DNA of 60,497 bases, from contig CAMJCC010000002.1 in the NCBI GenBank assembly GCA_946404035.1, positions 1 to 60,497 of the forward strand, read 5' to 3'. Shown here in pieces: positions 5,936 through 29,843 of this stretch (the stretch's first letter is position 1; each line of letters opens with the position of its first letter). Made by a program: the position numbers and the translations under genes. The notes under the pieces were generated by a model. That model was not told where the DNA came from. It saw nothing but the letters and a program-made list of their open reading frames with translations, and searched no databases. The stretch comes from an uncultured Clostridia bacterium. Its GTDB lineage: Bacteria; Bacillota; Clostridia; Oscillospirales; CAG-272.

Positions 5936-5939
5936 AACA

Positions 5940-12243: not shown

Positions 12244-12252
12244 CCGCGTACG

Positions 12253-12732: not shown

Positions 12733-12808
12733 GGGACGCCAAACGACAATATTTTTCCCGTTTTTTGGGGCAAAACCGCACGAAAAATAAAAAATCTTAA
12801 AAAAATAC

Positions 12809-12837
12809 TTGACAGATTATAAAAAAAAGGATAAAAT
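12809..12837 (+). promoter_or_regulatory. Strong sigma-A-type promoter of the giant-protein operon
   Basis: TTGACA (12809-12814), exact 17-nt spacer, TAAAAT (12832-12837), inside an AT-rich gap. Confidence 0.75.
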
Positions 12838-12889
12838 AGATTAGGAATTCGGATCGTATCCTTTTGGATACTTTCAAGACAATCTCATA

Positions 12890-12968
12890 ATATGTTAAAA
12901 GGGCAAAGCCACTGCGAAGTGGCGACGCAAAGCTAAAGGGACTCTATGAGTCAGCCAGTTGCAGCAGT
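12890..12968 (+). promoter_or_regulatory. c-di-GMP-I (GEMM) riboswitch aptamer
   Basis: AAAGGGCAAAGCCACU-GCGA-AGUGGCGACGCAAAGCUAAAGGGACUCUAUGAGUCAGCCAGUUGC. It aligns with Vc2 GGGCAAACC-AUUC-GAAA-GAGUGGGACGCAAAGCC... as I recall it. Shared elements are the GGCAAA, a P1 hairpin capped by a GNRA loop (GCGA), the invariant GACGCAAAGC junction, a second hairpin, and a CAGCCAGUUGC 3' strand. Confidence 0.75.
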
Positions 12969-12994
12969 GCAACGCGGCTGGCTTTTGTTATTTT
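12952..12994 (+). terminator. Intrinsic terminator (expression platform) overlapping the 3' strand of the aptamer
   Basis: CAGCC-AG-UUGCA-GCAG-UGCAA-CGC-GGCUG followed by GCUUUUGUUAUUUU. Its 5' arm is the same nucleotides as the aptamer's closing 3' segment. Confidence 0.7.
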
Positions 12995-13030
12995 CGGGCG
13001 CGCCGCGGCCGGACGAAAGGAGGGGAAAAG

Positions 13031-13996
13031 ATGAAAAAGATCGACAGATCGACGATGACGGTCATCCGTTTCGCGATCCCTCTTTGTCTTTCTTTTCTGA
13101 TCGTCGTCGGCGTCGTTCTGGTCGCCGTCCTGCACCCCTCGCTCGGCTGGTTCTCGGAAACCGAAAACCTGATGGTCGGGGGGATGAGCGTGGTCACCTC
13201 CACCGACGACTGCGATCTTCTGATCGAACGGGGGATCGAATACGACAGTAAAAAGGGTCCGAACCCGCCGTTGAGCAACCTCCCGCTCTATCCCGGGATC
13301 GTGGGGTTGAAGACCTTTTTCAGCGGCACCGGTTTTGACCTCGTAGCCGTTTCCACCGATACGTCGCCTAGTCTGGCGTTCGAGTTGGTGAACGAGTTGG
13401 TCCGTCCCGAGTTCGACGAGGACGTGAACGGCTCGGTCAATACCCGGTACCTGATGCCGGGCGCGTACGGAACGCTGAGCTTTTATATCCGTCCGTTCGA
13501 CGGGGTCGATCGGGTGGCGAAGACGTTTACGATCTCGCTGGCGGGGTATACCGCCATTGAGAGCGAGGGGGATTACGAGATCCAGCCCGTCACGTCCCAG
13601 AGCACGCTCGACCTGCTGAAAGGGCATATCCTCTTTTTCACCGGGCGGACGGAGGTAAACGACGCGTACCGGTACAGCGGACTGATCCGGGAGAGCTTCG
13701 TTTACGACACCGCCGAGCACGAAGTCTACGATGCGGAGAATAACCTCTACAAAGTCACCATTTATTGGGAGTGGCCCGAGACCTACCTCGACATCTCCCG
13801 CAAAACGTCAACCGAACTCGTGACCGATAAGTATCCCGTTGAGCTGACCGAGTACGTTTCCGGTAACCCCGAGTTCTTCTTCGCCATCAACCAGACGAGC
13901 GAAGAAGAGCGCGAACGCAGCGAGGGTTACGACGACGGCGACCAGAAGATCGGTAACCAGGTGCATTTCGTTTCGGTGACCGTTCAGGTAAACTGA
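13031..13996 (+). CDS. Secreted or anchored protein A (321 aa) with a TasA/camelysin-like (SipW-type) N-terminal motif; function unknown
   Basis: AGGAGGGG RBS. N-terminal TM/h-region followed by LGWFSETENLMVGGMSV (compare AYFSDKE...GTLDL of camelysin/TasA). Later LMPGAYGTLSFYIRP resembles the PGD-x...F-x-V strand of TasA-like jelly-rolls. Confidence 0.7.
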   Translation: MKKIDRSTMTVIRFAIPLCLSFLIVVGVVLVAVLHPSLGWFSETENLMVGGMSVVTSTDDCDLLIERGIEYDSKKGPNPPLSNLPLYPGIVGLKTFFSGTGFDLVAVSTDTSPSLAFELVNELVRPEFDEDVNGSVNTRYLMPGAYGTLSFYIRPFDGVDRVAKTFTISLAGYTAIESEGDYEIQPVTSQSTLDLLKGHILFFTGRTEVNDAYRYSGLIRESFVYDTAEHEVYDAENNLYKVTIYWEWPETYLDISRKTSTELVTDKYPVELTEYVSGNPEFFFAINQTSEEERERSEGYDDGDQKIGNQVHFVSVTVQVN

Positions 13997-14036
13997 CCGT
14001 CCGGGCGGACGATCGAAAAGAAAGGAGGCGAGAGCC

Positions 14037-14822
14037 GTGGAAGAAAGACCCGTGCGCGAGAACAGATCCGTTCTGCGCAAACTCGTTCCCATCGCGATCA
14101 CGATGGCGGCGCTTCTGTTGGCGCTCGCTTTGCCGGTCATGTCCTGGTTCATCACGAGTAAGAAACTGCTGGCGTACGCGCCGGTCACCTCCCCCGAGGC
14201 GCTCTATATCGGAGCGGGGCACCGGGATATCAGCAATGGTACTTTCGAGGATATCCGATACCTGTATTTCGACGGGATCAACGTCGCCGACGAATACTCC
14301 GACTACGTATTCTGCGTATACGGGACGGCGATCTCGGGTTTCTATCTGCAGCTCGGGTTCACGACCAACAACCAGTTCGTCTACGAGATCTACGTCGCGT
14401 CCGAGAGCGAGACCCCGCCGCCCGACCCGGCTACCGACTACGTGGACTACATCGTTCACGACGGTTCCAACAAGCACTACTACTACACCATCGATAACAC
14501 GGTCAACGGCGGCGATCCCATCTCCGGCACCTACCTGAACCTGGACACGACGGAGTATGCGACGAGCGGCCAGATGCTGGCAAACGAAAGCCGCGTGTCG
14601 CACGACTACGGCGAATACACCAATATCAATCGCTTCGCCAAGGCGCTCTACTGGCAGACCGACAGTGCGATCGACGGGGACACGCCGGAACTTGAGGGCG
14701 ACCAGACCTACGATTTCGTCGTCTATTTCATCCTGCGCGTCAATACGAACGGAAAGACGTCGAACGACCGCGAGACCGATATCCTCTGCATCTCGGTAAA
14801 ATCCGTCACCGTCGTCGACTGA
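14037..14822 (+). CDS. Secreted or anchored protein B (261 aa), function unknown
   Basis: GTG start 8 nt after AAAGGAGG. N-terminal TM followed by MSWFITSKKL. 40 nt downstream of gene A. Confidence 0.65.
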   Translation: MEERPVRENRSVLRKLVPIAITMAALLLALALPVMSWFITSKKLLAYAPVTSPEALYIGAGHRDISNGTFEDIRYLYFDGINVADEYSDYVFCVYGTAISGFYLQLGFTTNNQFVYEIYVASESETPPPDPATDYVDYIVHDGSNKHYYYTIDNTVNGGDPISGTYLNLDTTEYATSGQMLANESRVSHDYGEYTNINRFAKALYWQTDSAIDGDTPELEGDQTYDFVVYFILRVNTNGKTSNDRETDILCISVKSVTVVD

Positions 14823-14855
14823 CGGACGGGACCGTCATAGGAAAGGAGAGAGAGC

Positions 14856-15845
14856 ATGAAACCGAAAACAACGGTGAAAACGGAACGAACGGCGTGTCCG
14901 CAGCAAAAAGGCGACACGCGGCGTTTTGCCGTTATGCGGGTCGCGATCCTGCTCCTCATCCTTTCGCTGCTCGTCACCTCCGGGATCCTCACCTACGCCA
15001 AGTTCACGAACAGTTTGTACGCGCAGCGGACCGTCGCGGCGTACGACGCGGTGGGCGAACGTTTCTCCTCCAACTATCTGGTGGCGGGCGGCGGCGTTCG
15101 TACCGTTTCGGTCGCCTCGGCGCAAGAAACGCCGATCGCGATCGTGACCGTCTGCAACTACGAACAGGGCAAGCAGATGTATCCCAACACGCTGGATATC
15201 GATTACACGGTCACGCTGGAATTGGTCAAACTCAGCGGGGTGTCGTACGTTCCGGCGACCGCGGGTGAAGTCGGCGCCCACCAGATCACGGTCTCTCACG
15301 GCGGGCAAACCGTCTATCTGAACAGCGGAAATCTGAGCGACGACGAAACGTTTTCCGGCACGCTCTACGCCGACTACGGCGCCACGTCCGACGCCTACAC
15401 GGTGTCGTTCGAGCCGTATCAGAACCAGATCTTCCTCAGGATGACGGTGGTACCGGATGAAAATCTTGCTCTGTCGGACCTGATCGGGGTCCTGAAATCC
15501 GAGATCAAGATGGCGGGCGCGTCGAGTTCCTGGACGGGTTCGTTCCAGGACGCCACGGGGAACGCCCCCTCCTCCTACGACGGTTTCAACTACCGCGTGA
15601 ACGGGGTCGGAAGCGGGACCTTTACCCTGCGGTGGGACGCGACCAAGGTCGGGCTGAGCGATATGTCCCGTATGACCCTGCTCTCCATCCCGGGAGCAAC
15701 GGAGGACGGCAGCTCCATCACTTTCCCGGTCGACGCCGAGGACGTGAACCTGTACGACCTGCAATTCTATAAGATCAATATCACGAGCGAAACGTGGGAC
15801 GTGATGACGTCGAGCGTCGTCATCTACGAATTCGTCGCCTCCTGA
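14856..15845 (+). CDS. Secreted or anchored protein C (329 aa), function unknown
   Basis: GGAAAGGAG RBS. N-terminal TM followed by LTYAKFTNSLYA and ...ERFSSNYL. 33 nt downstream of gene B. Confidence 0.65.
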   Translation: MKPKTTVKTERTACPQQKGDTRRFAVMRVAILLLILSLLVTSGILTYAKFTNSLYAQRTVAAYDAVGERFSSNYLVAGGGVRTVSVASAQETPIAIVTVCNYEQGKQMYPNTLDIDYTVTLELVKLSGVSYVPATAGEVGAHQITVSHGGQTVYLNSGNLSDDETFSGTLYADYGATSDAYTVSFEPYQNQIFLRMTVVPDENLALSDLIGVLKSEIKMAGASSSWTGSFQDATGNAPSSYDGFNYRVNGVGSGTFTLRWDATKVGLSDMSRMTLLSIPGATEDGSSITFPVDAEDVNLYDLQFYKINITSETWDVMTSSVVIYEFVAS

Positions 15846-15870
15846 TCAGGATAATCGAGAGGGAAAAGAT

Positions 15871-18800
15871 ATGCAAACGAGAAGAGAAAAAAGGAAGATC
15901 GCGTTACGCGCCGTGCTCTGGGCATGGGGCATCGTCCTCTCATGCCTTTTCGTGTTTCTCTCTGCCCGTACCGACCGCGTCGTCGCGGCGGAGCCCGAGC
16001 CGAGCACCATCGAGATCGGTTCGGTCGAGGATTTTGCCGCGTACAGTCTGGGTTACTCGACCGATGCTTACCACCCGAAAGATACCCTGGTCATCTCGCT
16101 CCAGTCCGGTCTTGCCATTACCGACAACAACTTTATCAGTCTCGGGACCGAGAGCCGTCCCTTTGCCGGGACCCTGCAGATACCGGAGGGCGGTATCGAC
16201 ACATTCTATCTCTACGAATGTCCGCTCTTCAATTACGTGACGACCGACCTGACCATCACGGGCGGCGGAACGGTCAAGATCCAGCGTGAAGAACTGACCG
16301 AACCCATCCCCTCCGGCGTTCTGACCAGCGGCGCGCTCTTTGCAAACCACGTCGTCGCCGGAACCAACGCGGCGAACTGGTCGATCTCTTTCGAGGGCGC
16401 CACCGCGTCGTCTTTCGGGGGGCTGATCGGTTCCATCGCCGACGGCTGTGACGTGACGGTCACCTTTACGAACGCCACCAACGTCCCGGCGATCGGATCG
16501 GGGAATATCGGTCTGATCTGCGGCACGCTGGGCGACGGCGCCTCGCTTGCCGTGACGACGGCGGGCTCGGGCTCCTCCGTTTCGGTCTCGTCGACCGGGG
16601 GACACGCCGGCGGTATCGTCGGTAAGATGGGCAACGACGCGATCCTGACCCTGAACTCCGCGAACAACTCCCGCGTGACGAACGTATCGACCTCCTACGG
16701 CTCGGGTTACGCCGGCGGGATCGTCGGCTACGTTTCCGGCGTGACCACGTCGACCGGGATCAAACGCGGCGCCGGGGTCGTCGACTATACCGTTTCGGGT
16801 CAAGTGACCGGCGGCGCCGGCGCGGGCGGGCTCTTCGGCTACTACCGCTCGAACAGCGACGGCGTTTCGTTCACGCTTCAGAACACCTACAATATCGCCA
16901 GCGGGACGCGGGTCTCCTCCTCCGGGAACACCGGGGGCGTGTTCGGCTATCTGCTGAACTACGGCAACAGTTTCGCTTTCGACGGAAACGCGACGGGCAG
17001 CGAAGTGTTCACCGTTACCCTCGCCGGCGGGACCGCCCGCGGCGGCGTTGCCGGTAAGTATTCGACCGACGCGCTGTCGAACGTCCTGTCGATCACGAAC
17101 ACGAATTTCACGATCACCGCCAACGCCGGCAACACGGCGAGCCGGACCATCGGCGGTCTTGTCGGACAGGTCGCCGACGCATCCCCGTACGCGCCGGCGT
17201 ATATCAGTATCAACGGTACCAACGTCATCACGTCGGACGGCACCGGGGACGGGAACGCCCCCGGCGGCGGTCTTGTCGGCGACGCCGGTACGGGCGGCAG
17301 CTTCATCGACGTTTCGGGCAACGTGACCGTTTCGGGACGGTTCTACGCGGGCCTTGTCGCAAAACTTTCGGAGGGCGTGCTCCGCATCGCGGGCACGACC
17401 GACCTTTCGGCGTTCCGCCGGCACGGCGGCAGCGGCGACCTCACGGCGGGCACCATCGTACAGACCCGCGGCAGATCGCTCATCTACTCGCTCGGAAGCG
17501 GAGAGGGCGACGGCTGGGTACTGAAACGCAACACGTCATTCAACAATATGATCGACGACGTGAACACGTGGGGCGAGGTGCTTCGCCTCGACGGGACCAC
17601 GCTGACCGAGAGCGGACTGTTCACCGTTGATCCGTCGGCGCATACCGTCACCGTGAAGAGCGGCGTCACCGAGATCAACGACGAGGCCGGTTTTGCGAAG
17701 ACCGCCCTGAATATCCAGCTCGGAACCGCGGCGGGAAAGGGCGCGCTGCTCTTTGAGACGTCGAACCAATCCGCCACGCTCCTTGGCGCGACCCTGACGC
17801 TCGGGGCAGATATCGACCTGACGGGGACCGGACTGACCGGGATGACGCGCGACGACGGCGGAGAAGTGACCATCGCGCAGAATAAAAAAGTAATGATGCC
17901 GACCTCCGCCGCCTTTACCGGCACCTTCAACGGGAACGGTCACACCCTGACCGTCGCCACCGGAGAGGTGTGGGGGCTGACCTCCTCGGGAGCCTCGCTT
18001 CCCGCCTCCTCCACGGAGGGGATGATCCGGCGTCACCGGTTCATCGGTTTGTTTGCGAACACCGACGGGGCGACGTTCTCCAACCTGACGCTGAACGGAT
18101 ATTATCATTTCATTCTGGATATCGATCCCACCTATATCGGCGGTCTGTCCGCCTATTCGACGGGCGGTCTGGATCTGACCGGCGTGACCGTGTCCGGGCT
18201 CTCGTTTGATTATTACCTCGGCGCGAGCTATACGGCGTATATCGGCGGAGCGGTCGCCTACGCCCTCGGCGACGGTCTTGACGTTTCGGTCACGGGCGGC
18301 AGTTACCGTCCGACGATGACCGATACCTCCGCGGCCGGCAGGACGAGCGGATCCGCCGGGGACAAGATCTCCTACGTCGGCGGCGTGATCGGCTTTGTCA
18401 ACGAGGGAACGGGGCAATCGATCGAATTCGACGATACCACGATCGGGATCACCTTTACCAAGACGGTGAACACCCAACGCGAGCCGTATTTCGGCGCGGC
18501 GATCGGGGCGACCTCGAACCAGGCGTACGTCAAGGATAACCGCACGATCACCCTGACCGACGTCGACGTGATGATGAGCGCGAACGCGGCGGCGGCGGCA
18601 GGCAAGGAGTACGGCGGTATCCTCGGGACTTCGTGGCTCTCCGCCGACGTTACGATCGACGGCGTGGACGTCGTATCCGCCTCGATCACCGAGAGCAATT
18701 CCGCGGCGACCAACTTCGGCGGACTGGTCCACACGGCGACGGGGCACTGGGACGTTCAGGACCTCACCGTGACGAGCGCCAACTTCGACGTGACGGCGAC

Positions 18801-21800
18801 CGGCTCCACCTTCGGGATGATCGCGAACCGGGCATACTCGACCCTGCTCTCGAACGAAACGGCGCTTTACCTGGAACTCGACGACGCGAACTACGATATC
18901 GACGCCGTGACCTTTACCGGATCGACCGGGAACTTCTCCTCGTTCGACGAGGTCGTGGCGAACACCCGTTTCAATACCAGGGATATCGTCCGGAACGGCA
19001 ACGCGGTCGTTTCGATCAAGACGAGTGGCAACGTCGTCAACACGACCGGCAGCCAGAATACCTATCTGAACAAGACGGCGTACGGTCAATCGGCCGTCGG
19101 CGCCGCCAATCCCGACGCGCGCTATTACTACAACGTCGCGCACGCGGTCACCAATATCGGGACCGATCCCAAATACAACCTCTACGCATGGAGCGTCAAG
19201 CAGTACGCGCACTCCACGCTTTCCGCGTGGTTCGGGTCCCCGTCGTCCACCTTTGCGGGGACGATCGACCTGACCGGGATCTCCTACTATCCCGTCGACC
19301 TGTCGGCCAACGTGACCTTCTCGTCGGCAACGGTCAAACTGGATAATATCAAAATGGAAGGGTTCGTCAAAAAAGGGTATTCGGGCGACGGTTCCAGCCG
19401 CACGACGCGCTCGGCGAGCCAGCACTATCTGATGCACGCCGCGCTGTTTTTGAACGCGACCGGCGATATCACCGCGACCGGAAGCCCGGCGGGACTGAAA
19501 TTGCAGGGCAACGTGCCGAAGATCTCGAACGATATCTGCGGGTTCCTGGTCGCCGGAACGTTCGGCGGTACCGATAACCCCAGCCCGACCGTACTGGACG
19601 TGACCGACCTGGTGCTCGACGGCGTGTACGTATCGAACGGCGACAACCACTTTACCGACACGACCTACGCGCCGCTTCTGGTCAATAAAGCAAGCCGGAA
19701 CACGACGGTCACGCTGGACGGCGTGACCGCGCCGAACTACGGCTCGGATCTTGCCGCGTCCAGTCTGCTCGGCGATATGGGCAACTCGACGGCGCACGGC
19801 GTTCATCTGACGTTCACCCGCATCGTCCTCGACGGACGGAAAAGTACTTCGACCGACCTCACCGCGTCGGTCTCCCAAGCTCTGGACGACGCTTACGACA
19901 CGTCGAGGTCGATCTTCAGCCGCGCCACCCTGCTCAACAGTTTCCTGTACGCGGGCGAGAGCTCCGGTACCTACACCTTTACGATCGACGAGGACTGGGA
20001 CACTTCCACCGGCGATCCGATCCACCACGTCACCTACGGCTACGAGATCACGACCTCGCTCGAACACGCGGGCAAGCAGAACATGTACAGCGGCTCGACC
20101 ACGATCTTTACCGATCCCTCGGCCCACGACAACGACGATCCGGACAGCGTTTACGATTTCACGGCGTACTTCCAGCGCTACGTTTACGTCGCCACCAATC
20201 CGGCGGAATACAAACACGAACTGGCGGTCAACATCACCTACTCCTCGACCATTTCGGGCTTCGGCAAATACGATCAGCCGTTTCTGATCGACAGCGGCGA
20301 GAAACTGAAGATCATCGCCAAGATCATCAAGGGCGACGACGTGACGAGTTCGGTGAAGATCAATCTGCCGGGCGACCTCACGGGTTACAACTACCAGACG
20401 ACGGGATACGGGGAATACCTGTATTCTTTCAGCACGTCGACCTACACGTCCTCCGACGGCGGCGCTCCGTCGATGGTCAACGCGAACGTCCGACGGTATC
20501 TTGCCGGGGCGTACTATGCGATCACCGAAGATATCACGCTGTCCTCCGACTACGAGGCGCTCGGACAGACCACCGCCGCCAACCCCGAATACGCCTTCCA
20601 CGGCGTGATCCTCGGTTCCGGCGGCGCGATCCGGAAGATCACCAACACGTCGACCCAGCCGCTGGTCTACTCTTCGGTCGGCAGCGTGTTCAAGGACCTC
20701 GTGGTCCACGTGGCGACCGACGTCAGCGGATCGCACGAGATCCGGCTTTCTTCCGACAATACCACCTATCAGTACGCCAGCGGGCAGACCTCCTACGGCG
20801 CTCTGGTGCGGCAGGTCCTCGGCGGCGACAACGTGATCGACGACGTGAAAGTCACCTTTGACACGTCGGCCGAGACCGCCGTCACTTTCGCGTACGAGGC
20901 GAGCGGATCGAACCGCGACCGGCTGATCCCGATCGGCGGCTATATCGGCACGCTGGTCAACGGCGGCGTGATCTTCCGCAACGTGACGAGCGCATACGTC
21001 GGATTGACCGCGGCGACGACCGCAAACGTCACGGACGCCGGTTACCTCTACGTCAACCCGATCATCGGGCGCGTGCTCGCCGGCTACGCGTTCCGCGAGG
21101 CGGACGATTACGCCGTGACGTCGGCGTTCTCGAACGGGACCAAGAACTACGTTCTGTCGGATCTTGACGACGGACTTGCAAAACTTTCGATCACCAATTC
21201 GTCCAGCCAGTACACCATCACGGTGCCGAACGGGCAGGCGATGTACGTCCTCGGCGCGATCGTCAACAGCGGCGCCGCCTCGGCGAACTACAACGCGTCG
21301 ACCGAACAGGCGTACGACGGCATGGGCGACGAAGCGAACGACACGTTCTGGCAGGCGTACCGCATCTGCACCGCGACCCGCGCCGGCGCGACCTACGACT
21401 ACGTCGGAACGCTCAATCCGGCGTCCGATCCGGAGAGCGCCGCTTGCGCCGACTATACGGCGGCGGGACTTGACCGCTACGATATGAACGGCACCCACTC
21501 CGTGACCAAGAAGAGCGGCGAGACCGTCACGCTTCCGAACGGGGACCTGAAAGGGATCCCGTATATCATCCGTACCTATACCGCGAAGAACGGGAACGTT
21601 TACTACGCTCGCACTCTGACCCGCCGTACCAACAACAAGATCTCGATCACGAACAATATCGACGTCGCCGCCGGGTTCCGCGGGATCGGCAGCATCTATA
21701 CCGACGCAACGTCCTACGGGAGCGACCGGGTGCATCTCGGGATCGATACGATGTACGGCAGTACGGGAAGCACGACCATCACCCTGCACATGACGTTTAA

Positions 21801-24800
21801 CGAATACGACGCGTCGGTCACGTCCTACCGCGCCGTGAACGCCAATACGCACATTCCCTACGAGGCGGCGGTGCCCTTCGGCAGCAACGCCGGGTTCGGT
21901 CTCTTCAACCGGCTGTATCAGACAGGGTCGACCAACTATATCGAGAACTTTACCCTCTCGGGCGACTTGTATTACGGGCTGCGGGACGTGTCCGACGGCA
22001 GCGCCCTGAATTTGACGTACGACAACCTCTCGTCGACTTCGATCCTGAACGTCGGCGCGCTTGCCGGAACGGTCTACACCAACAACACGTCCTCTTTCCA
22101 GACCAGTTTGCGGGTCCGCAACGTGACGATCACGGGTCTTACGGTCACGGGACCGAAGTATGCCGGAGGGTTGGTCGGCTGCTTTGCGAACACAGTGGCA
22201 AATGCCGACGCAAAATACAAAAGCTACGTCACGAATTGCCCGGTTTCGACCACGACGATCACGGCAGGGCAGGCGGCGGGCAGTTATTTCGGCTACGCCA
22301 ACGTCGCCGGCAACCAGTCCAGCGCCAGCTCGGCGCGCCTCATCATCTCGGGCGATACGACGCTGGAGAACGGCGTGTCACGGAAGACGACGATCGCCCC
22401 GACGGCGATCACCGTCACCGGTTCCTGCCCGGCGGGAACGTGGCTGGAACGTATCAGCCCCACCGCGGGCGGCGTGATCGGCTGCGCCGACGTCGCGTTT
22501 GCTGTCAGCGGGAACTACTTCCTCGTCATTCAGCATATCAAGGTCGTCGGCGGCACCATCACCGCGGCGAGATCGAGCGTGACCGACTTTGGAACGAGAT
22601 CCAAGACGGGTCTGCCGTCCGCGGCGGGGATCATCGGTAAGATCCGTGCCGGCAGAACTTCGGTGACCGACTGCGAGGTCCTGCACGTCGACCTCAACTC
22701 CGACGTGACGGGCGGCGTGCTCGGATACGCCGTCATTCCGAAAAACTCGTCCTACGACTTCGAGCGGATCCTGATCGACGGCGACAAGGGCAACTCGACC
22801 GTCGCCGCCATGACGGCGCGGGTGCACGCGGGCGGTATCGTCGGCGAGTACTACTCCAAGAACCCCTCGAACTATACGTTCGCGGATCTTACCATCAGAA
22901 ACTACTCGTTCGTTTCCGAGTACGTCGGCGATTACGGAACGGCGGGCGGCGTCATCGGCCACACCTATATCGAGGCGAGCAACAATAAGGCGTTCCAGTT
23001 CCGCAATATCGAGGTGACCGGCTGTACGATGACGGTGGATACCACGGGCGTGAACTATACCAAGCACAAGGGCGTCGGCGGTCTTTTCGGCGCGCTCCAG
23101 GGCAACAGCAACAACGCGAAGTACACCGGGTACAACTTCCTCGTGAACAACGTCACCTTTGCGGGTTCCGGGACCGCGAACGCGGGCGCCGTCGTCGGCA
23201 ACAATATCAGCAACACGGCGAGGATCCAACTGGTCGGCGTCAGCGCGGACGTGGATCCGGGGACCAAGACGCTTACCTGGACCGAAAACAACAACAGCGG
23301 CTATTCCGCCTACGCCAACTACTCGCAGGCGACGGCCAATACGGCTTTCACCGCGCTGAGCGGCGCGGGAATGGCCGCGGTCGCCGCACCGTACGCCACG
23401 GTGAACCCCGTCTGTACGATCGGGGGACTGAAGATCGTCGGCGACGGCGTCTCGGACGAGATCGCAAACCTGCCGATCCAGTCGATCCTTGCCGGTTACG
23501 CGGCAGACAGCAAGCGGTACGCGTACGCCGCCTCCGCCTACTACACGGGCGGTTCGGGCATCACCAACTACACGGCGTTCAACAACGCGAAGTCGGGCGC
23601 GATCATCATGTTCTCCGACGAGGCGTACGGCTACGACGGCGACGACGATTTCCCCGTGATCCTGATCGAAACGACCAACGAGGACGATTCGCACAGACTG
23701 ATCAACAGTTACATCCGGCTGCTCACCAACACCACGTTCAACTTCGGGACCGACGTCGCCGGACAGTTCGAGGTCGCCATCTACAAGATGGCGTACGACG
23801 ACGAGAACGAAGTCTTCGTCCTGTCCAGCGGCGACGCGAGCTTGAAACGGACGGGCGGCAAGTTCCGGATGATCAACTCGGCGTACGACAGCGGTAAAGC
23901 GCAATGCTCGCTGATCGACGTGCGGTTCTTCGACCCGTCCGACGGGACGACGGTGGCGTACCATCTGTATATCCCGGTCTTCATCAAAAAGGTCCTGACC
24001 TTTGATTTCGACGTGGCGGCGCTGAGCGGCACCAACTACCTCGAGGGGCAGTACACCTCTCTCTTCGGTCAGCGTCTGATCGCAAACGTCGGCGCGCCGA
24101 TCACGCTCTACTTCCGCTACACCTACTCGCGGACCGCCGCCGAATGGGAATCCGCCATCAACAACGGTGAGCCGCTGCTCCGGCACTACGGCAAGAAACT
24201 GATCCTGCACAAGGCGAACAACAACGAGATCTTAAAGGATTTCGACGAGGGCAAACAGACCGAGACCATCCTGGTCCTGGTGGACAAGAACGACGGCGGA
24301 AGACCCTATTACGCCAAACTCAGCGACGCGCTCTCGGACGACGTCATCGACCTGTCGGTCTTCCAGTCGTCGATGAGGATCGACGGGAACGGGGACTACG
24401 TCTTCTCGGGCGCCTACTTCATCCCGCTCGACTTCTCGGATATGCTCTCCTATACCGCCTCGGTCGCGGTCGACGGATCGCTCGTCGCCTGCACACCCTC
24501 CGAAGCGACGGTCCGGACGTGGCAGGGCTACCGCCTTGCTACCTCCGCCGAACTGGCAAACGGCGGGATCGATAAATACGCGCTCTCGGCGTCTGTTTCC
24601 GCCGACGGGACGTACGTCCGCTGCCCCGTCGAGGGCGCACAGATCGTGATCTCGGGTTACGGCTACTGCCGTGCGACCGCCGCCCAACTGGAGGACAACG
24701 GGACCGATAAGTACGCGATCACGGCGTCGGTTTCGGGCGAGGGGACCTACGTCGCCTGCGCCGCCGGATCCGCGATGGTCCGGGTGTACGGGCAGGGTTA

Positions 24801-26301
24801 CCGTTCCGCCACCGACGAGGAACTCGGGGACAACGAGATCGACAAGTACACCGTTACGGTCGACGCGATCCCCGGCGGCGAACTCGTCGAAAAGTATTAC
24901 CTCTCGATCTTCACCGACGACGGCGAGGACCTCGAAGAGGAAGGAGAGGGCGAAGAGGGCGAAGAAGGCGAAGAAGAGGAAGACAAGGGTTACGATCTCT
25001 TCCATTACTTCTACGTCACCACGCCCCAGTCGCTCAACGACGGCGTGACCTATCCGGCGCGCGTTATGGATCCGAGCGATCTGTCCGCAATGATCCACCT
25101 GGTCATGGGGAAGATCTTCGACCACTCCGATCTGACCATCGTATCGACCTCGCGATACGGTTCTGCTGTGCTGATGACGAGCGGCGGCAACGACGCTCTG
25201 ATCGTTTCGATGTCGGTGCAGATCGGCCTTTCGGAAAGTCTCGGGGCTTTGCGTAACGAGGTGAAGGGCTACGTCGCCGCCACCGGCTTCTATCAGAGTT
25301 TCCTGGTCTACCTGACGCGCAACGAGGGAAGTTCGCAGACCAAAGCGATCCTCGGCAATCCGACGGCGTCGGGCGGTTACGCGGTCGACTACGTGATGAA
25401 CGGGGAGGCCGACGTCGCGCTCGGCAATTACGCGAACGCCAATATCCACGTGACGCAGATCTATGCGGAGTTCGTGACGGGCAACCTCGGTCCCGCGTTC
25501 GCGGGCGAGGGCAACTACGTCGTCGAGATCAACGCCGAGGTCATGCTGGAATATCTGCAGGCGGGTGCGGTGCTGGCACAGTTCCCGGGCAGAAACGGCA
25601 ATGACGATGACGGCGTGACCCTGTCCGCGTCCTCCAACATCGCGTTCTCCGCCGCGGCGACGTCGTACAGTAAGAACTCGATCAACCGCGAAGAGGATAG
25701 TCCCGTGCGTTCCTATTACTCCGAAGCCGAGGTCGACAACGCGACCATCGCCCTCCAGCCTTTCGGCGACAGACAGGGCGACTACACCCCGTACGGTATC
25801 AACGCGCTGAACGACCCGCCCGAAACGCTCGAGATCTTCGCGACGATGGACTTTACCCCGATCTATCGGCAGGTGAACGGACACTATACCAGCGCGGTCG
25901 TTACCGCCACCCTGCGGCAGAAGCAGAACGACGGTTCCTACTCCGAATACGATCTCACGGATATCGACCAATATATCACGTCGTTCTCCGTCGGCGAGTA
26001 CGAGGCGACGACCACAGGGGAGCATCCGAAGTCCTATTCCGTCACCATCCCCGCCGGCAGTACGACCGTCGGCGCCGTTTCGATCGAGTTCCCGCACATC
26101 TACTTCTCGGTCAAGACGTTCCCGCCCGGATCCGATCCGGAATTCGAGGGCTTCTATTACGGCAACTACCGTCTGACCGTGACCATCGTTCTGCTGGACG
26201 AACACGGCGACGAGATCGCGGCGTCCAAGGCGTCCGACTACGTGATCTACACCAACGCAAAGGTCCGTCCGAGTTACATTCCCGCCGTCGTCGGACCGTG
26301 A
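15871..26301 (+). CDS. Giant (3,476 aa) secreted GLUG-motif / beta-solenoid-like repeat protein with no recognisable cell-wall anchor
   Basis: Uninterrupted 10.4-kb ORF 25 nt after gene C. Signal peptide ...LSARTDRVVA|AEP. About 30 G-G-[ILV]-[IVF]-G motifs by eye (HAGGIVGK, YAGGIVGY, GAGGLFGY, TIGGLVGQ, YAGGLVGC, TAGGVIGH, GVGGLFGA...). A triplicated 45-aa module and an acidic E/G tract lie near the C-terminus. Confidence 0.9.
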   Translation: MQTRREKRKIALRAVLWAWGIVLSCLFVFLSARTDRVVAAEPEPSTIEIGSVEDFAAYSLGYSTDAYHPKDTLVISLQSGLAITDNNFISLGTESRPFAGTLQIPEGGIDTFYLYECPLFNYVTTDLTITGGGTVKIQREELTEPIPSGVLTSGALFANHVVAGTNAANWSISFEGATASSFGGLIGSIADGCDVTVTFTNATNVPAIGSGNIGLICGTLGDGASLAVTTAGSGSSVSVSSTGGHAGGIVGKMGNDAILTLNSANNSRVTNVSTSYGSGYAGGIVGYVSGVTTSTGIKRGAGVVDYTVSGQVTGGAGAGGLFGYYRSNSDGVSFTLQNTYNIASGTRVSSSGNTGGVFGYLLNYGNSFAFDGNATGSEVFTVTLAGGTARGGVAGKYSTDALSNVLSITNTNFTITANAGNTASRTIGGLVGQVADASPYAPAYISINGTNVITSDGTGDGNAPGGGLVGDAGTGGSFIDVSGNVTVSGRFYAGLVAKLSEGVLRIAGTTDLSAFRRHGGSGDLTAGTIVQTRGRSLIYSLGSGEGDGWVLKRNTSFNNMIDDVNTWGEVLRLDGTTLTESGLFTVDPSAHTVTVKSGVTEINDEAGFAKTALNIQLGTAAGKGALLFETSNQSATLLGATLTLGADIDLTGTGLTGMTRDDGGEVTIAQNKKVMMPTSAAFTGTFNGNGHTLTVATGEVWGLTSSGASLPASSTEGMIRRHRFIGLFANTDGATFSNLTLNGYYHFILDIDPTYIGGLSAYSTGGLDLTGVTVSGLSFDYYLGASYTAYIGGAVAYALGDGLDVSVTGGSYRPTMTDTSAAGRTSGSAGDKISYVGGVIGFVNEGTGQSIEFDDTTIGITFTKTVNTQREPYFGAAIGATSNQAYVKDNRTITLTDVDVMMSANAAAAAGKEYGGILGTSWLSADVTIDGVDVVSASITESNSAATNFGGLVHTATGHWDVQDLTVTSANFDVTATGSTFGMIANRAYSTLLSNETALYLELDDANYDIDAVTFTGSTGNFSSFDEVVANTRFNTRDIVRNGNAVVSIKTSGNVVNTTGSQNTYLNKTAYGQSAVGAANPDARYYYNVAHAVTNIGTDPKYNLYAWSVKQYAHSTLSAWFGSPSSTFAGTIDLTGISYYPVDLSANVTFSSATVKLDNIKMEGFVKKGYSGDGSSRTTRSASQHYLMHAALFLNATGDITATGSPAGLKLQGNVPKISNDICGFLVAGTFGGTDNPSPTVLDVTDLVLDGVYVSNGDNHFTDTTYAPLLVNKASRNTTVTLDGVTAPNYGSDLAASSLLGDMGNSTAHGVHLTFTRIVLDGRKSTSTDLTASVSQALDDAYDTSRSIFSRATLLNSFLYAGESSGTYTFTIDEDWDTSTGDPIHHVTYGYEITTSLEHAGKQNMYSGSTTIFTDPSAHDNDDPDSVYDFTAYFQRYVYVATNPAEYKHELAVNITYSSTISGFGKYDQPFLIDSGEKLKIIAKIIKGDDVTSSVKINLPGDLTGYNYQTTGYGEYLYSFSTSTYTSSDGGAPSMVNANVRRYLAGAYYAITEDITLSSDYEALGQTTAANPEYAFHGVILGSGGAIRKITNTSTQPLVYSSVGSVFKDLVVHVATDVSGSHEIRLSSDNTTYQYASGQTSYGALVRQVLGGDNVIDDVKVTFDTSAETAVTFAYEASGSNRDRLIPIGGYIGTLVNGGVIFRNVTSAYVGLTAATTANVTDAGYLYVNPIIGRVLAGYAFREADDYAVTSAFSNGTKNYVLSDLDDGLAKLSITNSSSQYTITVPNGQAMYVLGAIVNSGAASANYNASTEQAYDGMGDEANDTFWQAYRICTATRAGATYDYVGTLNPASDPESAACADYTAAGLDRYDMNGTHSVTKKSGETVTLPNGDLKGIPYIIRTYTAKNGNVYYARTLTRRTNNKISITNNIDVAAGFRGIGSIYTDATSYGSDRVHLGIDTMYGSTGSTTITLHMTFNEYDASVTSYRAVNANTHIPYEAAVPFGSNAGFGLFNRLYQTGSTNYIENFTLSGDLYYGLRDVSDGSALNLTYDNLSSTSILNVGALAGTVYTNNTSSFQTSLRVRNVTITGLTVTGPKYAGGLVGCFANTVANADAKYKSYVTNCPVSTTTITAGQAAGSYFGYANVAGNQSSASSARLIISGDTTLENGVSRKTTIAPTAITVTGSCPAGTWLERISPTAGGVIGCADVAFAVSGNYFLVIQHIKVVGGTITAARSSVTDFGTRSKTGLPSAAGIIGKIRAGRTSVTDCEVLHVDLNSDVTGGVLGYAVIPKNSSYDFERILIDGDKGNSTVAAMTARVHAGGIVGEYYSKNPSNYTFADLTIRNYSFVSEYVGDYGTAGGVIGHTYIEASNNKAFQFRNIEVTGCTMTVDTTGVNYTKHKGVGGLFGALQGNSNNAKYTGYNFLVNNVTFAGSGTANAGAVVGNNISNTARIQLVGVSADVDPGTKTLTWTENNNSGYSAYANYSQATANTAFTALSGAGMAAVAAPYATVNPVCTIGGLKIVGDGVSDEIANLPIQSILAGYAADSKRYAYAASAYYTGGSGITNYTAFNNAKSGAIIMFSDEAYGYDGDDDFPVILIETTNEDDSHRLINSYIRLLTNTTFNFGTDVAGQFEVAIYKMAYDDENEVFVLSSGDASLKRTGGKFRMINSAYDSGKAQCSLIDVRFFDPSDGTTVAYHLYIPVFIKKVLTFDFDVAALSGTNYLEGQYTSLFGQRLIANVGAPITLYFRYTYSRTAAEWESAINNGEPLLRHYGKKLILHKANNNEILKDFDEGKQTETILVLVDKNDGGRPYYAKLSDALSDDVIDLSVFQSSMRIDGNGDYVFSGAYFIPLDFSDMLSYTASVAVDGSLVACTPSEATVRTWQGYRLATSAELANGGIDKYALSASVSADGTYVRCPVEGAQIVISGYGYCRATAAQLEDNGTDKYAITASVSGEGTYVACAAGSAMVRVYGQGYRSATDEELGDNEIDKYTVTVDAIPGGELVEKYYLSIFTDDGEDLEEEGEGEEGEEGEEEEDKGYDLFHYFYVTTPQSLNDGVTYPARVMDPSDLSAMIHLVMGKIFDHSDLTIVSTSRYGSAVLMTSGGNDALIVSMSVQIGLSESLGALRNEVKGYVAATGFYQSFLVYLTRNEGSSQTKAILGNPTASGGYAVDYVMNGEADVALGNYANANIHVTQIYAEFVTGNLGPAFAGEGNYVVEINAEVMLEYLQAGAVLAQFPGRNGNDDDGVTLSASSNIAFSAAATSYSKNSINREEDSPVRSYYSEAEVDNATIALQPFGDRQGDYTPYGINALNDPPETLEIFATMDFTPIYRQVNGHYTSAVVTATLRQKQNDGSYSEYDLTDIDQYITSFSVGEYEATTTGEHPKSYSVTIPAGSTTVGAVSIEFPHIYFSVKTFPPGSDPEFEGFYYGNYRLTVTIVLLDEHGDEIAASKASDYVIYTNAKVRPSYIPAVVGP

Positions 26302-26360
26302 TCCGGCCCCGACCGACGTTCCCACCATTTTCCCGGTGCAAACCACCTTTCATACCGGAG

Positions 26361-26390
26361 AAAAACCGCAAAAAACCGCAAAAAACCGCA
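26361..26390. repeat. Three perfect tandem copies of AAAAACCGCA
   Basis: Read directly, between the giant-gene stop and its terminator. Confidence 0.9.
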
Positions 26391-26404
26391 CCCCCGCAAA
26401 CGGC

Positions 26405-26439
26405 GGGCGCCCGGAACATTCCGGGCGCCCGTTGTTTTT
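26405..26439 (+). terminator. Intrinsic terminator of the giant-protein operon
   Basis: gggcgcccggaa/ttccgggcgccc hairpin followed by gttgttttt. Confidence 0.8.
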
Positions 26440-26454
26440 CTTATCCGCCGACCG

Positions 26455-26493: not shown

Positions 26494-26501
26494 ACGGGAA
26501 A

Positions 26502-29839: not shown

Positions 29840-29843
29840 GGCG

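What the first reader, a model, noticed from the sequence alone, without database searches (positions are those of the whole stretch)
12809..26439. c-di-GMP-riboswitch-gated operon: three TasA/camelysin-signal-like proteins plus an anchorless 3,476-aa GLUG-repeat giant protein
One consensus promoter (TTGACA-17-TAAAAT), a GEMM-I aptamer and an overlapping intrinsic terminator precede four genes. The genes are separated by only 40, 33 and 25 nt and are closed by a strong terminator, so this is a single regulated unit of about 13.6 kb. The three small products each have one N-terminal hydrophobic helix immediately followed by an aromatic-Phe-Ser/Thr motif (LGWFSETEN, MSWFITSKK, LTYAKFTNS). That motif resembles the AYFSD/AWFTD signature of SipW-processed TasA/camelysin fibre proteins. 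The fourth product is a giant secreted beta-solenoid-like protein without LPXTG, SLH or other recognisable anchor. The window contains no signal peptidase (SipW), sortase, dedicated secretion gene, GGDEF/EAL gene or glycosyltransferase. The combination suggests a second-messenger-controlled extracellular fibre or matrix/adhesion system. In it the giant protein could be displayed or tethered by TasA-like subunits rather than by a covalent wall anchor. I do not recognise this gene architecture as a described system.
Basis: partly seen in the sequence, partly recalled or inferred. Interest (0 to 1): 0.85.

Follow-up and report, generated by a model that had tools for sequence, protein, structure and literature searches.

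The report
c-di-GMP-switched giant surface-protein cassette
A c-di-GMP-sensing RNA switch controls a conserved, completely unannotated four-gene cassette in uncultured rumen Clostridia, made of three small exported proteins with a shared TasA-style N-terminal signal plus a 3,476-residue secreted giant; it looks like a new kind of surface fibre or adhesin system.

Summary
A near-consensus promoter, an RF01051 c-di-GMP-I aptamer (59 bits) and an overlapping terminator precede four tightly packed genes, which end at a strong terminator.

The cassette order g1-g2-g3-giant is kept in every related locus that has enough sequence (about 28). These come from rumen and gut Clostridia, Oscillospiraceae and "Bacilli" MAGs. 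The g1 family alone has 749 clusters at 50% identity. None of the four proteins hits Pfam or NCBIfam.

The aptamer is present in 14 of 28 loci. Five more loci have GGDEF/EAL genes next door.

The three small proteins are not paralogues and are not detectably TasA-fold. Foldseek and hhalign were both negative, and g3 is a two-domain Ig-like protein. They do share one N-terminal signal: a TM helix, small residues at -3 and -1, and F/Y at +2. For g3 this signal aligns in register with the TasA SipW cleavage site.

A SipW-type (ER/archaeal) signal peptidase cluster, also containing a membrane AAA+ ATPase, a DUF2357-like protein and an EAL protein, sits beside such cassettes in other genomes. It was found beside them in 10 of 11 loci retrieved using the peptidase alone. 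The window itself has no such cluster.

The "GLUG" label is motif-level only. My best reading is a c-di-GMP-ON, SipW-processed surface assembly that displays a giant beta-helical adhesin. That makes it a new variant of a known kind, built from new protein families.

The parts
12809..12837 (+). sigma-70-type promoter TTGACA-17-TAAAAT
   Evidence: 11/12 match. Promoters matching 10-12 of 12 lie upstream of the aptamer in 10 of 13 related loci.
12892..12966 (+). c-di-GMP-I (GEMM-I) riboswitch aptamer
   Evidence: RF01051, 59.1 bits against a gathering score of 35. In 13 orthologous aptamers, 95.9% of cells are paired and 7 pairs have compensatory changes; 0 of 500 shuffles reach that.
12948..12994 (+). 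Expression platform: intrinsic terminator hairpin (12948-12984) plus U-rich tail. Its 5' arm overlaps the 3' strands of the aptamer.
   Evidence: Fold -23.4 kcal/mol, z -3.95. In the ligand-free MFE the terminator replaces the second aptamer helix. The same layout occurs in L003, L005, L007, L008, L014, L015 and L021.
13031..13996 (+). g1: 321-aa exported protein. TM helix, then S-L-G|W40-F41 (predicted cleavage), then a beta-rich domain ending in a GYDDGDQxIG motif.
   Evidence: ORF and RBS. Family alignment A1. AF2 pLDDT 85.9. The profile finds 749 clusters at 50% identity.
14037..14822 (+). g2: 261-aa exported protein. TM helix, then V-M-S|W37-F, then the conserved AYAPVxSPEALYIGAGH.
   Evidence: Alignment A4 of 20 syntenic homologues. 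W37 is invariant and position -1 is always A, S or G.
14856..15845 (+). g3: 329-aa exported protein. TM helix, then T-Y-A|K-F-T-N-S (TasA-like cleavage pattern), then a conserved AQRTVAAY..G.RFSSNYL segment and two Ig-like beta-sandwich domains.
   Evidence: Alignment A2. AF2 pLDDT 88.2. Foldseek best hits are FimH, CupB6 and FocH, E 1e-5 to 7e-4, TM 0.22-0.30. hhalign is in register with the TasA cleavage site.
15871..26301 (+). g4: 3,476-aa secreted giant. It has a Sec signal peptide (..RVVA|AEPEP) and a conserved N-terminal domain. Two blocks of GG[hydrophobic]2G coils (residues 183-467 and 2099-2404) suggest a beta-helix. There are three ~45-aa tandem repeats (nt 24529-24930), an acidic E/G linker (nt 24916-24990) and a C-terminal domain of about 440 aa. 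It has no wall or membrane anchor.
   Evidence: Translation. Motif and hydropathy scan. Conserved N-terminus in 19 homologues. Weak Pectate_lyase_5 hit on the L025 homologue. No Pfam, NCBIfam or PDB hit.
26398..26447 (+). Operon terminator (18-bp, 12 G-C stem plus T-run).

Best explanation
This is a c-di-GMP-induced cell-surface assembly operon of an uncultured high-GC rumen or gut Clostridia bacterium.

Transcription starts at a strong sigma-70-type promoter. In the 186-nt leader (from the predicted transcription start, about 12845, to the g1 ATG) a c-di-GMP-I aptamer and an intrinsic terminator compete for the same bases. I infer that ligand binding keeps the aptamer folded, blocks the terminator and lets RNA polymerase read into the four genes. 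That would make it an ON switch.

g1, g2 and g3 are three unrelated beta-sandwich proteins. They enter the Sec pathway with one shared class of N-terminal signal: a long hydrophobic helix, small residues at -3 and -1, and W/x then F/Y at +1 and +2. I infer that a SipW-type (ER/archaeal-type) signal peptidase encoded elsewhere in the genome cleaves them. The predicted sites are G39|W40 in g1, S36|W37 in g2 and A48|K49 in g3.

Cleavage would expose conserved N-terminal segments that are disordered in the monomer models. I infer, by analogy to TasA and BsaA donor-strand exchange and to chaperone-usher pilins, that these segments mediate subunit-subunit assembly into a short heteromeric stalk or base. 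The Sec-secreted, anchorless 3,476-aa beta-helical giant g4 would be held and displayed by this structure as an adhesin or matrix protein. Likely targets are plant fibre or other cells when c-di-GMP is high.

Shown: the RNA elements, the operon, the strict four-gene synteny, the shared signal pattern, and the genomic coupling to c-di-GMP enzymes and SipW-type peptidase clusters.
Inferred: the ON logic, the cleavage, the assembly mode and the adhesive role.
For: RNA elements:
- Aptamer at 59.1 bits, with covariation across 13 orthologues.
- The terminator overlaps the aptamer's 3' strands, here and in 7 other loci.
- Consensus-like promoters recur upstream of the aptamers.

Synteny and family size:
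- The order g1-g2-g3-g4 is found in every locus retrieved via g1 or via g3 that has enough sequence. This includes members at only E~1e-27 to the g1 profile.
- The g1 family has 749 clusters at 50% identity.

c-di-GMP link:
- The aptamer is present in 14 of 28 loci, scattered over the cassette tree.
- GGDEF and/or EAL genes are adjacent in L001, L010, L012, L014, L015, L020, L021, L023 and L032.

Shared signal:
- hhalign between the three families aligns only the N-terminal TM-plus-motif region, probability 67-80%.
- Position -1 is G/A in 30/30 g1, A/S/G in 20/20 g2 and A in 36/38 g3. Position -3 is S in 28/30, V/T/A in 20/20 and T/S/V in 37/38. Position +2 is F in 30/30, F/L/Y in 20/20 and Y/F in 38/38.
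- The TasA site T-W-A|A-F-N-D has the same pattern (mature N-terminus verified). The only g3-TasA hhalign hit is in that register.
- TIGR04088 gives weak hits in 3 of 38 g3 relatives.

SipW-type peptidases:
- They score 62-72 bits on TIGR02228, above the cutoff of 51.85, and have invariant Ser, His and Asp.
- They lie beside the cassette in two separate clades.
- A search with the peptidase alone returned 11 loci. Ten carry type A or type B cassette genes or WF-signal proteins within 6 kb.

Models:
- The conserved post-cleavage segments have pLDDT below 50 in otherwise confident models.
- g3 resembles two-domain pilus tip adhesins.
- g4 has a Sec signal and no anchor.
Against: - There is no SipW-type peptidase in the 60-kb window, and the rest of the genome is unseen.
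- TIGR04088 is not met at its cutoff by any cassette protein.
- The hydrophobic helices are long (about 25 aa). AF2 extends the g3 helix through the motif, which also fits uncleaved signal anchors.
- The g1 fold has no significant match. The TM-scores for g3 are low (0.22-0.30) and generic Ig proteins score similarly.
- I could not compute or test any interaction between g1-g3 and g4.
- Half of the cassettes lack the aptamer.
- The ON/OFF logic is inferred from secondary structure only.
Confidence: 0.55

Rival explanations
1. Membrane-anchor platform. g1-g3 are not cleaved. They are bitopic (N-in, C-out) membrane proteins, and the conserved W-F/Y-F residues are interfacial aromatic anchors. 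Together they form a membrane-tethered docking or export platform that holds the giant protein at the cell surface.
For: The hydrophobic segments are long. AF2 gives a continuous helix over residues 6-38 in g1 and 21-55 in g3. There is no signal peptidase gene in the window. TIGR04088 is not met. N-terminal regions, including the h-region, are about 59% identical between g1 and the unrelated 286-aa proteins of relatives. That degree of conservation is unusual for a signal peptide that is simply discarded.
Against: Position -1 is invariantly small and position -3 is small or aliphatic in three unrelated families. The pattern is in register with the TasA cleavage site. A SipW-type peptidase cluster lies repeatedly next to such cassettes.
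Confidence: 0.2
2. True TasA/camelysin homologues. g1-g3 are divergent TasA-fold jelly-roll subunits that polymerise into TasA-type fibres and tether the giant protein.
For: The signal pattern resembles that of TasA and CalY. An 'xMPGAYGTLTFYLRP' strand in g1 is reminiscent of the TasA 'LKPGD..F.F.N' strand (this comparison is from my memory of TasA, not a test). SipW association holds. TasA fibre 8aur appears in the g1 Foldseek list.
Against: There is no Peptidase_M73/TasA Pfam hit for any member. hhalign of the g1 profile against TasA gives probability 0.06%. The 8aur hit has E 0.21 and TM 0.19-0.24, which is not significant. g3 is a two-domain Ig-like protein with no TasA among its top 50 matches. 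The three mature domains are not related to one another.
Confidence: 0.1
3. Secreted enzyme or toxin with accessory factors. g4 is a giant beta-helical polysaccharide lyase/hydrolase or a contact-dependent effector, not an adhesin. g1-g3 would be its export, maturation or immunity-type accessories.
For: A g4 homologue gives a weak Pectate_lyase_5 hit. The habitat is the rumen. g4 has no anchor. Different giant-protein cassettes replace each other at the same chromosomal site, which suggests diversifying selection.
Against: No catalytic or toxin domain was detected in g4. Elsewhere, c-di-GMP ON control typically accompanies adhesins, pili and matrix proteins (established knowledge, not tested here). 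The small proteins are exported beta-sandwich proteins rather than cytoplasmic immunity proteins.
Confidence: 0.1
4. Cargo of the neighbouring prophage or another mobile element, for example a tail-fibre-like or superinfection-exclusion module.
For: A prophage-like block (small terminase, large terminase, portal, BspA-LRR protein) starts about 3.5 kb downstream, at 29.9 kb.
Against: Housekeeping genes (PRTase and NUDIX upstream, GGGtGRT and a NifU-like gene downstream) flank the cassette. A relative has the same PRTase-NUDIX junction with a different cassette and no phage genes. Other loci have unrelated chromosomal flanks.
Confidence: 0.03

Closest known systems
Bacillus subtilis tapA-sipW-tasA biofilm fibre operon (TasA donor-strand-exchange fibres; PMC9674648, PMC10151520)
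   Same: Exported subunits have a signal with small residues at -3 and -1 and an aromatic residue at +2 (TasA is T-W-A|A-F-N-D). The conserved N-terminal segment is unstructured in the monomer. The system depends on, or is associated with, an ER/archaeal-type signal peptidase (SipW). The overall role is matrix or adhesion.
   Different: sipW is not in the operon or the window. The mature domains show no detectable TasA homology or fold. There are three unrelated subunits plus a 3,476-aa giant. Control is by a c-di-GMP riboswitch rather than SinR/Spo0A.
Clostridium perfringens sipW-bsaA-bsaB-bsaC operon (PMC7395162; bioRxiv 10.1101/2024.11.04.621531)
   Same: This is a clostridial operon that combines small SipW-processed fibre subunits with a larger Sec-signal cargo protein (BsaC, a vWA protein). 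No sortase is needed for polymerisation. Subunits are proposed to be membrane-held until SipW cleaves them.
   Different: BsaA and BsaB are TasA-like, while g1-g3 are not detectably so. The cargo here is five times larger and beta-helical. No vWA domain is present. No isopeptide-forming residues were tested. The peptidase is unlinked in this genome. Regulation is by riboswitch.
c-di-GMP riboswitch-controlled adhesin or pilus genes of Firmicutes (C. difficile pilA1, CD2831, CD3246; B. thuringiensis Bc2-cap).
   Same: A c-di-GMP aptamer sits in the 5' leader with a transcription terminator and switches a surface adhesin or pilus gene on when c-di-GMP is high.
   Different: Those targets are sortase-anchored (LPXTG) adhesins or type IV pilins. 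Here the proteins have no LPXTG and no prepilin motif, and all four families are unannotated.
Giant c-di-GMP-controlled adhesins of Gram-negatives (LapA/LapD/LapG; V. cholerae FrhA/CraA, PMC6890996 by title)
   Same: A repeat-rich adhesin of more than 3,000 aa has its surface display governed by c-di-GMP.
   Different: Those adhesins are T1SS substrates retained in an outer-membrane pore and released by proteolysis, with post-translational control. Here the giant protein is Sec-dependent, the host is a monoderm, and control is transcriptional through a riboswitch.
Chaperone-usher tip adhesins (FimH, FocH, CupB6)
   Same: The g3 model is a two-domain beta-sandwich protein. Its best Foldseek hits are these adhesins (E 1e-5 to 7e-4, probability up to 1.00).
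   Different: TM-scores are only 0.22-0.30. TCR, Fab and other two-Ig-domain proteins score similarly. There is no chaperone or usher, and the host is Gram-positive-type.

Membership tests
c-di-GMP-I riboswitch (Rfam RF01051) | Covariance-model score at or above the gathering threshold (35 bits) | tested here: met
   59.1 bits, E 4.9e-9, full-length model match at 12892-12966.
c-di-GMP-I riboswitch (Rfam RF01051) | Helices supported by compensatory changes in orthologues | tested here: met
   In 13 orthologous aptamers, 95.9% of cells are paired, 7 pairs change on both sides and 0 of 500 shuffles reach the covariation score. Slid controls reach only 19-40% paired.
c-di-GMP-I riboswitch (Rfam RF01051) | Ligand binding and a ligand-dependent change in termination | not testable with these tools
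   Only the structural competition between aptamer and terminator was computed.
TasA/camelysin (Peptidase_M73, TasA jelly-roll fold) | Sequence match to the family model or to TasA | tested here: not met
   No Pfam hit at E<=1 for g1-g3 or for 30 g1 relatives. The g1, g2 and g3 profiles find no TasA chain among PDB sequences. hhalign of the g1 profile against TasA gives probability 0.06%.
TasA/camelysin (Peptidase_M73, TasA jelly-roll fold) | TasA-like fold of the mature domain | tested here: not met
   For g1, 8aur_A ranks 16th with E 0.21 and TM 0.19/0.24. For g3, no TasA appears in the top 50 and the model has two Ig-like domains. g2 was not modelled.
SipW-dependent-type signal peptide proteins (NCBIfam TIGR04088) | HMM score above the curated cutoff | tested here: not met
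   No hit for the four window proteins at E<=1. Only 3 of 38 g3 relatives give weak hits, best E 0.02. There are none in the L020, L025, L029 or L030 proteins.
SipW-dependent-type signal peptide proteins (NCBIfam TIGR04088) | Cleavage-site pattern: small -3 and -1, aromatic at +2, as in TasA T-W-A|A-F | tested here: met
   Column counts in A1, A4 and A2. The g3-TasA hhalign match is in register with the site, E 0.039. The mature N-terminus of TasA was verified against 8aur_A.
SipW-dependent-type signal peptide proteins (NCBIfam TIGR04088) | A cognate ER/archaeal-type signal peptidase (TIGR02228) encoded nearby | tested here: inconclusive
   Absent from the window. Present beside cassettes in L001, L010, L012, L023, L032 and L034. 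Cassette-type genes accompany 10 of 11 loci found with the peptidase alone.
SipW-dependent-type signal peptide proteins (NCBIfam TIGR04088) | Actual SipW-dependent cleavage | not testable with these tools
   Needs proteomics or genetics.
GLUG-motif proteins (Pfam PF07581) | Match to the GLUG HMM | tested here: not met
   No Pfam family at E<=1 for g4. There are only 16 GG[ILVFM][ILVFAM]G motifs, mostly at about 36-40-aa spacing.
Sortase-anchored (LPXTG) surface proteins or pili | C-terminal LPXTG-like motif plus a hydrophobic tail, and a sortase gene | tested here: not met
   No LP.T[GANS] or NP.TG and no C-terminal hydrophobic segment in g4. No sortase was found in the window ORFs scanned.
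Type IV pilins / pseudopilins | Short charged leader, then G|F/M-x-x-x-E before the hydrophobic helix | tested here: not met
   In g1-g3 the conserved motif follows the hydrophobic helix, and no G-F-x-x-x-E is present.

The most novel reading that the evidence does not exclude
The cassette would be the structural half of a previously unrecognised surface-assembly pathway of monoderm bacteria.

In this reading, a dedicated N-terminal sorting signal (TM helix, [S/T]-x-[G/A/S]|[W/x]-[F/Y]) marks many otherwise unrelated proteins. These include g1-g3, 286-392-aa S/T-rich candidate major subunits, and even 1,700-2,000-aa giants.

The marked proteins would be processed and assembled by a conserved machine made of two ER-type signal peptidases, a membrane-anchored McrB-like AAA+ ATPase and a DUF2357-like partner.

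The whole pathway would be wired to c-di-GMP through riboswitches and linked GGDEF/EAL enzymes. Interchangeable giant-protein cassettes would swap at fixed chromosomal sites.
Probability: 0.3. Interest if true: 0.9.

Novelty: new variant of a known kind. Interest (0 to 1): 0.72.

Why it matters
Attachment to plant fibre and to other cells is central to rumen and gut Clostridia. Almost nothing is known about how uncultured Oscillospiraceae-type bacteria attach.

This work defines a widespread four-gene module. The g1 family alone has 749 clusters at 50% identity. No database names any of the four protein families.

The module comes with a clear input signal (c-di-GMP, through an aptamer that can be tested in vitro). 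It also comes with a shared sorting signal whose predicted cleavage sites can be checked by mass spectrometry, and with a candidate processing cluster.

If the model is right, SipW/TasA-type assembly extends beyond TasA-fold proteins to the display of giant anchorless adhesins. It would also give four to seven new protein families a function, and it would supply a marker for c-di-GMP-controlled adhesion in rumen metagenomes.

Tried and rejected
- Pfam and NCBIfam on all four proteins and on 30 and 38 family members gave nothing meaningful.
- phmmer and profile searches against PDB sequences for g4, g1, g2 and g3 gave nothing.
- BLASTP among g1, g2 and g3 showed no paralogy.
- hhalign among the three family profiles aligned only the signal region.
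- Foldseek of the g1 model found no significant match, so I rejected the TasA-fold idea.
- The full-length g4 homology search timed out. The N-terminal 600 aa gave only 10 hypothetical hits.
- The search for related loci with the 38-sequence g3 alignment failed for lack of a conserved stretch. I repeated it with 15 sequences.
- Looking up the window's own g1 in the contig index returned nothing on record.
- An exact 30-mer from g3 was not found in GTDB representative genomes, so the species is not identified.
- My own covariance model found no cryptic aptamers in the riboswitch-less loci.
- Type B giants (L025, L026, L027) are not BLASTP-homologous to g4.
- I rejected prophage membership of the cassette on flank evidence.
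- I rejected type IV pilin and sortase-pilus readings on motif grounds.
Full report
**1. Observation.**
The scan of 12000-27500 finds one near-consensus promoter, TTGACA-17-TAAAAT, at 12809-12837. Rfam finds a full-length c-di-GMP-I aptamer at 12892-12966, scoring 59.1 bits against a gathering score of 35.

Directly overlapping the 3' part of the aptamer is a hairpin at 12948-12984 (-23.4 kcal/mol, z -3.95), followed by UUGUUAUUUU.

Four ORFs follow on the + strand:
- g1, 13031-13996. The real start is the ATG after a GGAGG site, not the upstream TTG.
- g2, 14037-14822.
- g3, 14856-15845.
- g4, 15871-26301 (3,476 aa).

The gaps are 40, 33 and 25 nt, and an 18-bp-stem terminator sits at 26398-26437.

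The only descriptive claim that fails a formal test is 'GLUG'. Pfam reports nothing for g4 even at E<=1. g4 does contain 16 GG[hydrophobic][hydrophobic]G motifs, 14 of them in two blocks with mostly 36-40-residue spacing.

**2. The window around it.**
Upstream lie a phosphoribosyltransferase and a NUDIX gene. Downstream on the other strand lie a GGGtGRT-family gene and a NifU-like gene.

Further away are a prophage-like block (small terminase, large terminase, portal, BspA-LRR protein) and a nitrogen-assimilation cluster.

No S26 peptidase, sortase, GGDEF/EAL or glycosyltransferase domain was found in the 34 window ORFs scanned. phmmer with SipW, GGDEF and EAL queries also found nothing in the window. 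The window is 62.6% G+C.

**3. The cassette is a conserved unit.**
g1 has 52 close clusters and g3 more than 155. All come from uncultured Clostridia and all are named 'hypothetical'.

Loci were fetched through g1 (L001-L005, L029, L030) or independently through g3 (L006-L026). They carry g1-g2-g3-giant in the same order whenever the contig is long enough. The giants are 3,271-3,494 aa.

The hosts are rumen and gut MAGs labelled Clostridia, Ruminococcus sp., Oscillospiraceae, Mageeibacillus, 'Bacilli bacterium' and one 'Acholeplasmatales' bin.

A profile of g1 searched against 1.84 billion representatives finds 749 clusters at E<=1e-3 and 516 at E<=1e-10. Two distant members, at E about 1e-27 to 1e-29, again sit in the four-gene cassette. 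This is a large, coherent and wholly unannotated system.

**4. The c-di-GMP link is real and old.**
The aptamer lies directly upstream of g1 in 12 loci. It lies further upstream in the same gene string in two more, L020 and L025.

Thirteen orthologous aptamers show clear covariation. 95.9% of cells are paired, seven pairs have compensatory changes, and 0 of 500 shuffles reach the score.

A clade-specific covariance model finds no hidden aptamers in the remaining loci. However, five of those loci (L001, L010, L012, L023, L032) have a GGDEF-EAL gene immediately upstream, and in all but L012 a GGDEF gene as well. L014, L015 and L021 have both the aptamer and a GGDEF gene. In L020 the aptamer is followed first by a stand-alone EAL gene.

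On a tree of concatenated g1+g2+g3, riboswitch-bearing loci are scattered over all major branches.

In the window and in seven other loci the 5' arm of the terminator is the 3' strand of the aptamer's second hairpin. A ligand-stabilised aptamer should therefore prevent termination. I infer an ON switch, but this is not shown.

Near-consensus promoters precede most aptamers. That fits a design in which a strong promoter is gated entirely by the riboswitch.

**5. What the three small proteins are.**
They are not paralogues. BLASTP finds nothing between them, and profile-profile comparison aligns only the N-terminal hydrophobic helix plus the motif after it (probability 67-80%).

Within each family the residues around the motif are fixed:

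| Family | -3 | -1 | +1 | +2 |
|---|---|---|---|---|
| g1 | S 28/30 | G/A 30/30 | W 30/30 | F 30/30 |
| g2 | V/T/A 20/20 | A/S/G 20/20 | W 20/20 | F/L/Y 20/20 |
| g3 | T/S/V 37/38 | A 36/38 | variable | Y/F 38/38 |

In g3, position +3 is T in 36 of 38. This is the -3/-1 rule of signal peptidases with an aromatic residue at +2, which is the pattern of the TasA site T-W-A|A-F-N-D.

I checked my recalled TasA sequence against PDB 8aur, whose chain starts at A28. The only hhalign match between the g3 profile and TasA puts SGILTYAKFTNSLY on VGGGTWAAFNDIKS, in register with that site. The match is weak (E 0.039). TIGR04088, the NCBIfam model for SipW-dependent signals, is touched weakly by 3 of 38 g3 relatives and by none of the window proteins.

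The mature domains give no support for TasA homology:
- The g1 model (pLDDT 85.9) has no significant PDB match. The TasA fibre ranks 16th with E 0.21.
- The g3 model (pLDDT 88.2) has two Ig-like sandwiches. Its best matches are the two-domain pilus tip adhesins FimH, CupB6 and FocH (E 1e-5 to 7e-4). TM-scores are low and generic two-Ig-domain proteins score similarly.
- In both models the highly conserved stretch just after the predicted cleavage site has pLDDT below 50. That is what one expects of a segment that only becomes ordered against a partner.

**6. The same signal marks other proteins, and a peptidase cluster travels with them.**
- Relatives of this organism carry 286-289-aa proteins whose first 58 residues are 59% identical to g1 but whose mature part is unrelated.
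- One of these (L027) sits at the same PRTase-NUDIX junction as the window cassette, behind the same aptamer. It is followed by a 292-aa 'VSLGWFSD' protein and a 2,033-aa giant that itself starts with '..TVTFAWLAG'. I call this a 'type B' cassette.
- Type B cassettes also lie just upstream of type A cassettes in L025 and L026.
- Extra S/T-rich '..YAWF[ST]M..' proteins lie between the aptamer and the cassette in L020, and upstream of the cassette in L029.
- In L001, L010, L012 and L023 the cassette is preceded by a gene for an ER/archaeal-type signal peptidase. It scores 62-72 bits on TIGR02228 against a cutoff of 51.85, and is second-best to the SipW model. Its Ser, His and Asp are invariant. 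These loci fall in two separate clades.
- I then searched GTDB genomes with the peptidase alone, with no cassette constraint, and retrieved 11 loci. In 10 of them the peptidase sits in a conserved cluster: [second SipW-like (in most)]-[McrB-like AAA+ ATPase]-[DUF2357-like protein]-[SipW-like]-[GGDEF-EAL (where the contig extends that far)]. The AAA+ ATPase has two N-terminal TM helices.
- Within 6 kb of that cluster lie type A genes (L031, L032, L034, L039), type B giants (L033, L035, L037, L040) or WF-signal proteins (L036, L038). Several of these sit behind c-di-GMP aptamers.

This is the strongest evidence that the shared signal is read by a SipW-type peptidase.

**7. The giant protein.**
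g4 has an ordinary Sec signal peptide (..RVVA|AEPEP) followed by an N-terminal domain that is conserved in all homologues. It does not carry the WF signal.

It has no other hydrophobic segment and no LPXTG. It is G/T/A/S/N-rich, with two blocks of GGxxG coils. One homologue gives a weak pectate-lyase-type hit. Together these suggest a beta-helix.

Near the C-terminus are three ~45-aa tandem repeats and an acidic E/G linker. I found no catalytic, toxin or wall-binding domain. How g4 stays on the cell is not shown. Its obligate linkage to g1-g3 is the reason to propose that they hold it.

**8. Comparison and verdict.**
In regulation the locus works like the c-di-GMP riboswitch-controlled adhesin and pilus genes of C. 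difficile and B. thuringiensis (recalled from the literature). In export and assembly logic it is closest to tapA-sipW-tasA and, even more, to C. perfringens sipW-bsaA-bsaB-bsaC. That operon combines small SipW-processed subunits with a larger cargo protein.

It is not a member of the TasA/camelysin, GLUG, LPXTG or type IV pilin families by any test I could run. I found no paper describing it.

I rate it a new variant of a known kind, built from new protein families. I give a 30% chance that, together with the AAA+/DUF2357/SipW cluster, it represents a distinct surface-assembly pathway.

It was right about the riboswitch, the operon, the missing anchor, the novelty and the SipW-type signal idea. 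It was wrong about TasA-like folds, about the three small proteins being of one kind, and about GLUG domains.

Noticed in passing
L027:9861-17898; also L025:776-7307, L026:1534-7457, L040:8957-12591: An alternative 'type B' cassette: a c-di-GMP-I aptamer, one or two ~290-aa WF-signal proteins, and a 1,670-2,030-aa giant that itself carries the WF-type N-terminus. In L027 it occupies exactly the PRTase-NUDIX site where the window has its four-gene cassette. This suggests cassette replacement at a fixed chromosomal site. The type B giants are not BLASTP-homologous to g4.
   Followed up: partly
L001:1-9752, L032:723-10480, L033-L040 (around position 6000 in each): A conserved cluster: [SipW-like]-[McrB-like AAA+ ATPase with two N-terminal TM helices]-[DUF2357-like protein of 480-1,300 aa]-[SipW-like, start overlapping the previous stop]-[GGDEF-EAL]. 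A membrane-anchored McrB-like ATPase flanked by signal peptidases is not what a restriction system looks like. It may be an assembly or export machine for the WF-signal proteins.
   Followed up: partly
L020:678-4607: Here the aptamer is followed by a stand-alone EAL protein (298 aa), a 263-aa TM protein and a 306-aa '..SYAWFSMNTQVTATGMQV' S/T-rich protein. After them, on the opposite strand, is a fragment of a similar gene that lacks its signal. All of this precedes the four-gene cassette. The same contig carries a second type A cassette (L019).
   Followed up: partly
window 4822-4925 (-) and 2928-4787 (-): A THF riboswitch (75.1 bits) lies upstream of a 619-aa ORF that fuses an ECF-transporter S component (FolT-like) to Mur-ligase M and C domains (FolC-like). 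This would be a folate uptake and polyglutamylation fusion under THF control.
   Followed up: partly
window 28994-45533 (+): A prophage-like block: ClpP-family protease, GP3-type small terminase, large terminase, SU10/P22-like portal, a 900-aa BspA-type LRR protein and many ORFs without a family.
   Followed up: partly
window 5138-6629 (+): A Wzz-like chain-length determinant and an AAA_31/ParA-type ATPase (CpsC/CpsD-like pair). This hints at a capsule or EPS locus a few kb upstream of the cassette.
   Followed up: no
window 24529-24990 (+), g4 residues 2887-3040: Three ~45-aa tandem repeats (Y[RC][LRS]AT..EL.[DN][GN].[IT]DKY..[ST].SV..[DE]GTYV.C) followed by an acidic E/G-rich linker (DDGEDLEEEGEGEEGEEGEEEEDKG) precede the last ~440 residues of the giant protein.
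   Followed up: no
window 16986-17062 (-): A weak hit of my own aptamer model (19.8 bits, E 0.033) inside g4 on the opposite strand, at 68% G+C. It is most likely chance.
   Followed up: no
window 47614-60301: A nitrogen-assimilation cluster: type I glutamine synthetase, GXGXG, oxidoreductase and glutamate-synthase subunits, type III glutamine synthetase, an Amt-PII fusion and asparagine synthase.
   Followed up: no
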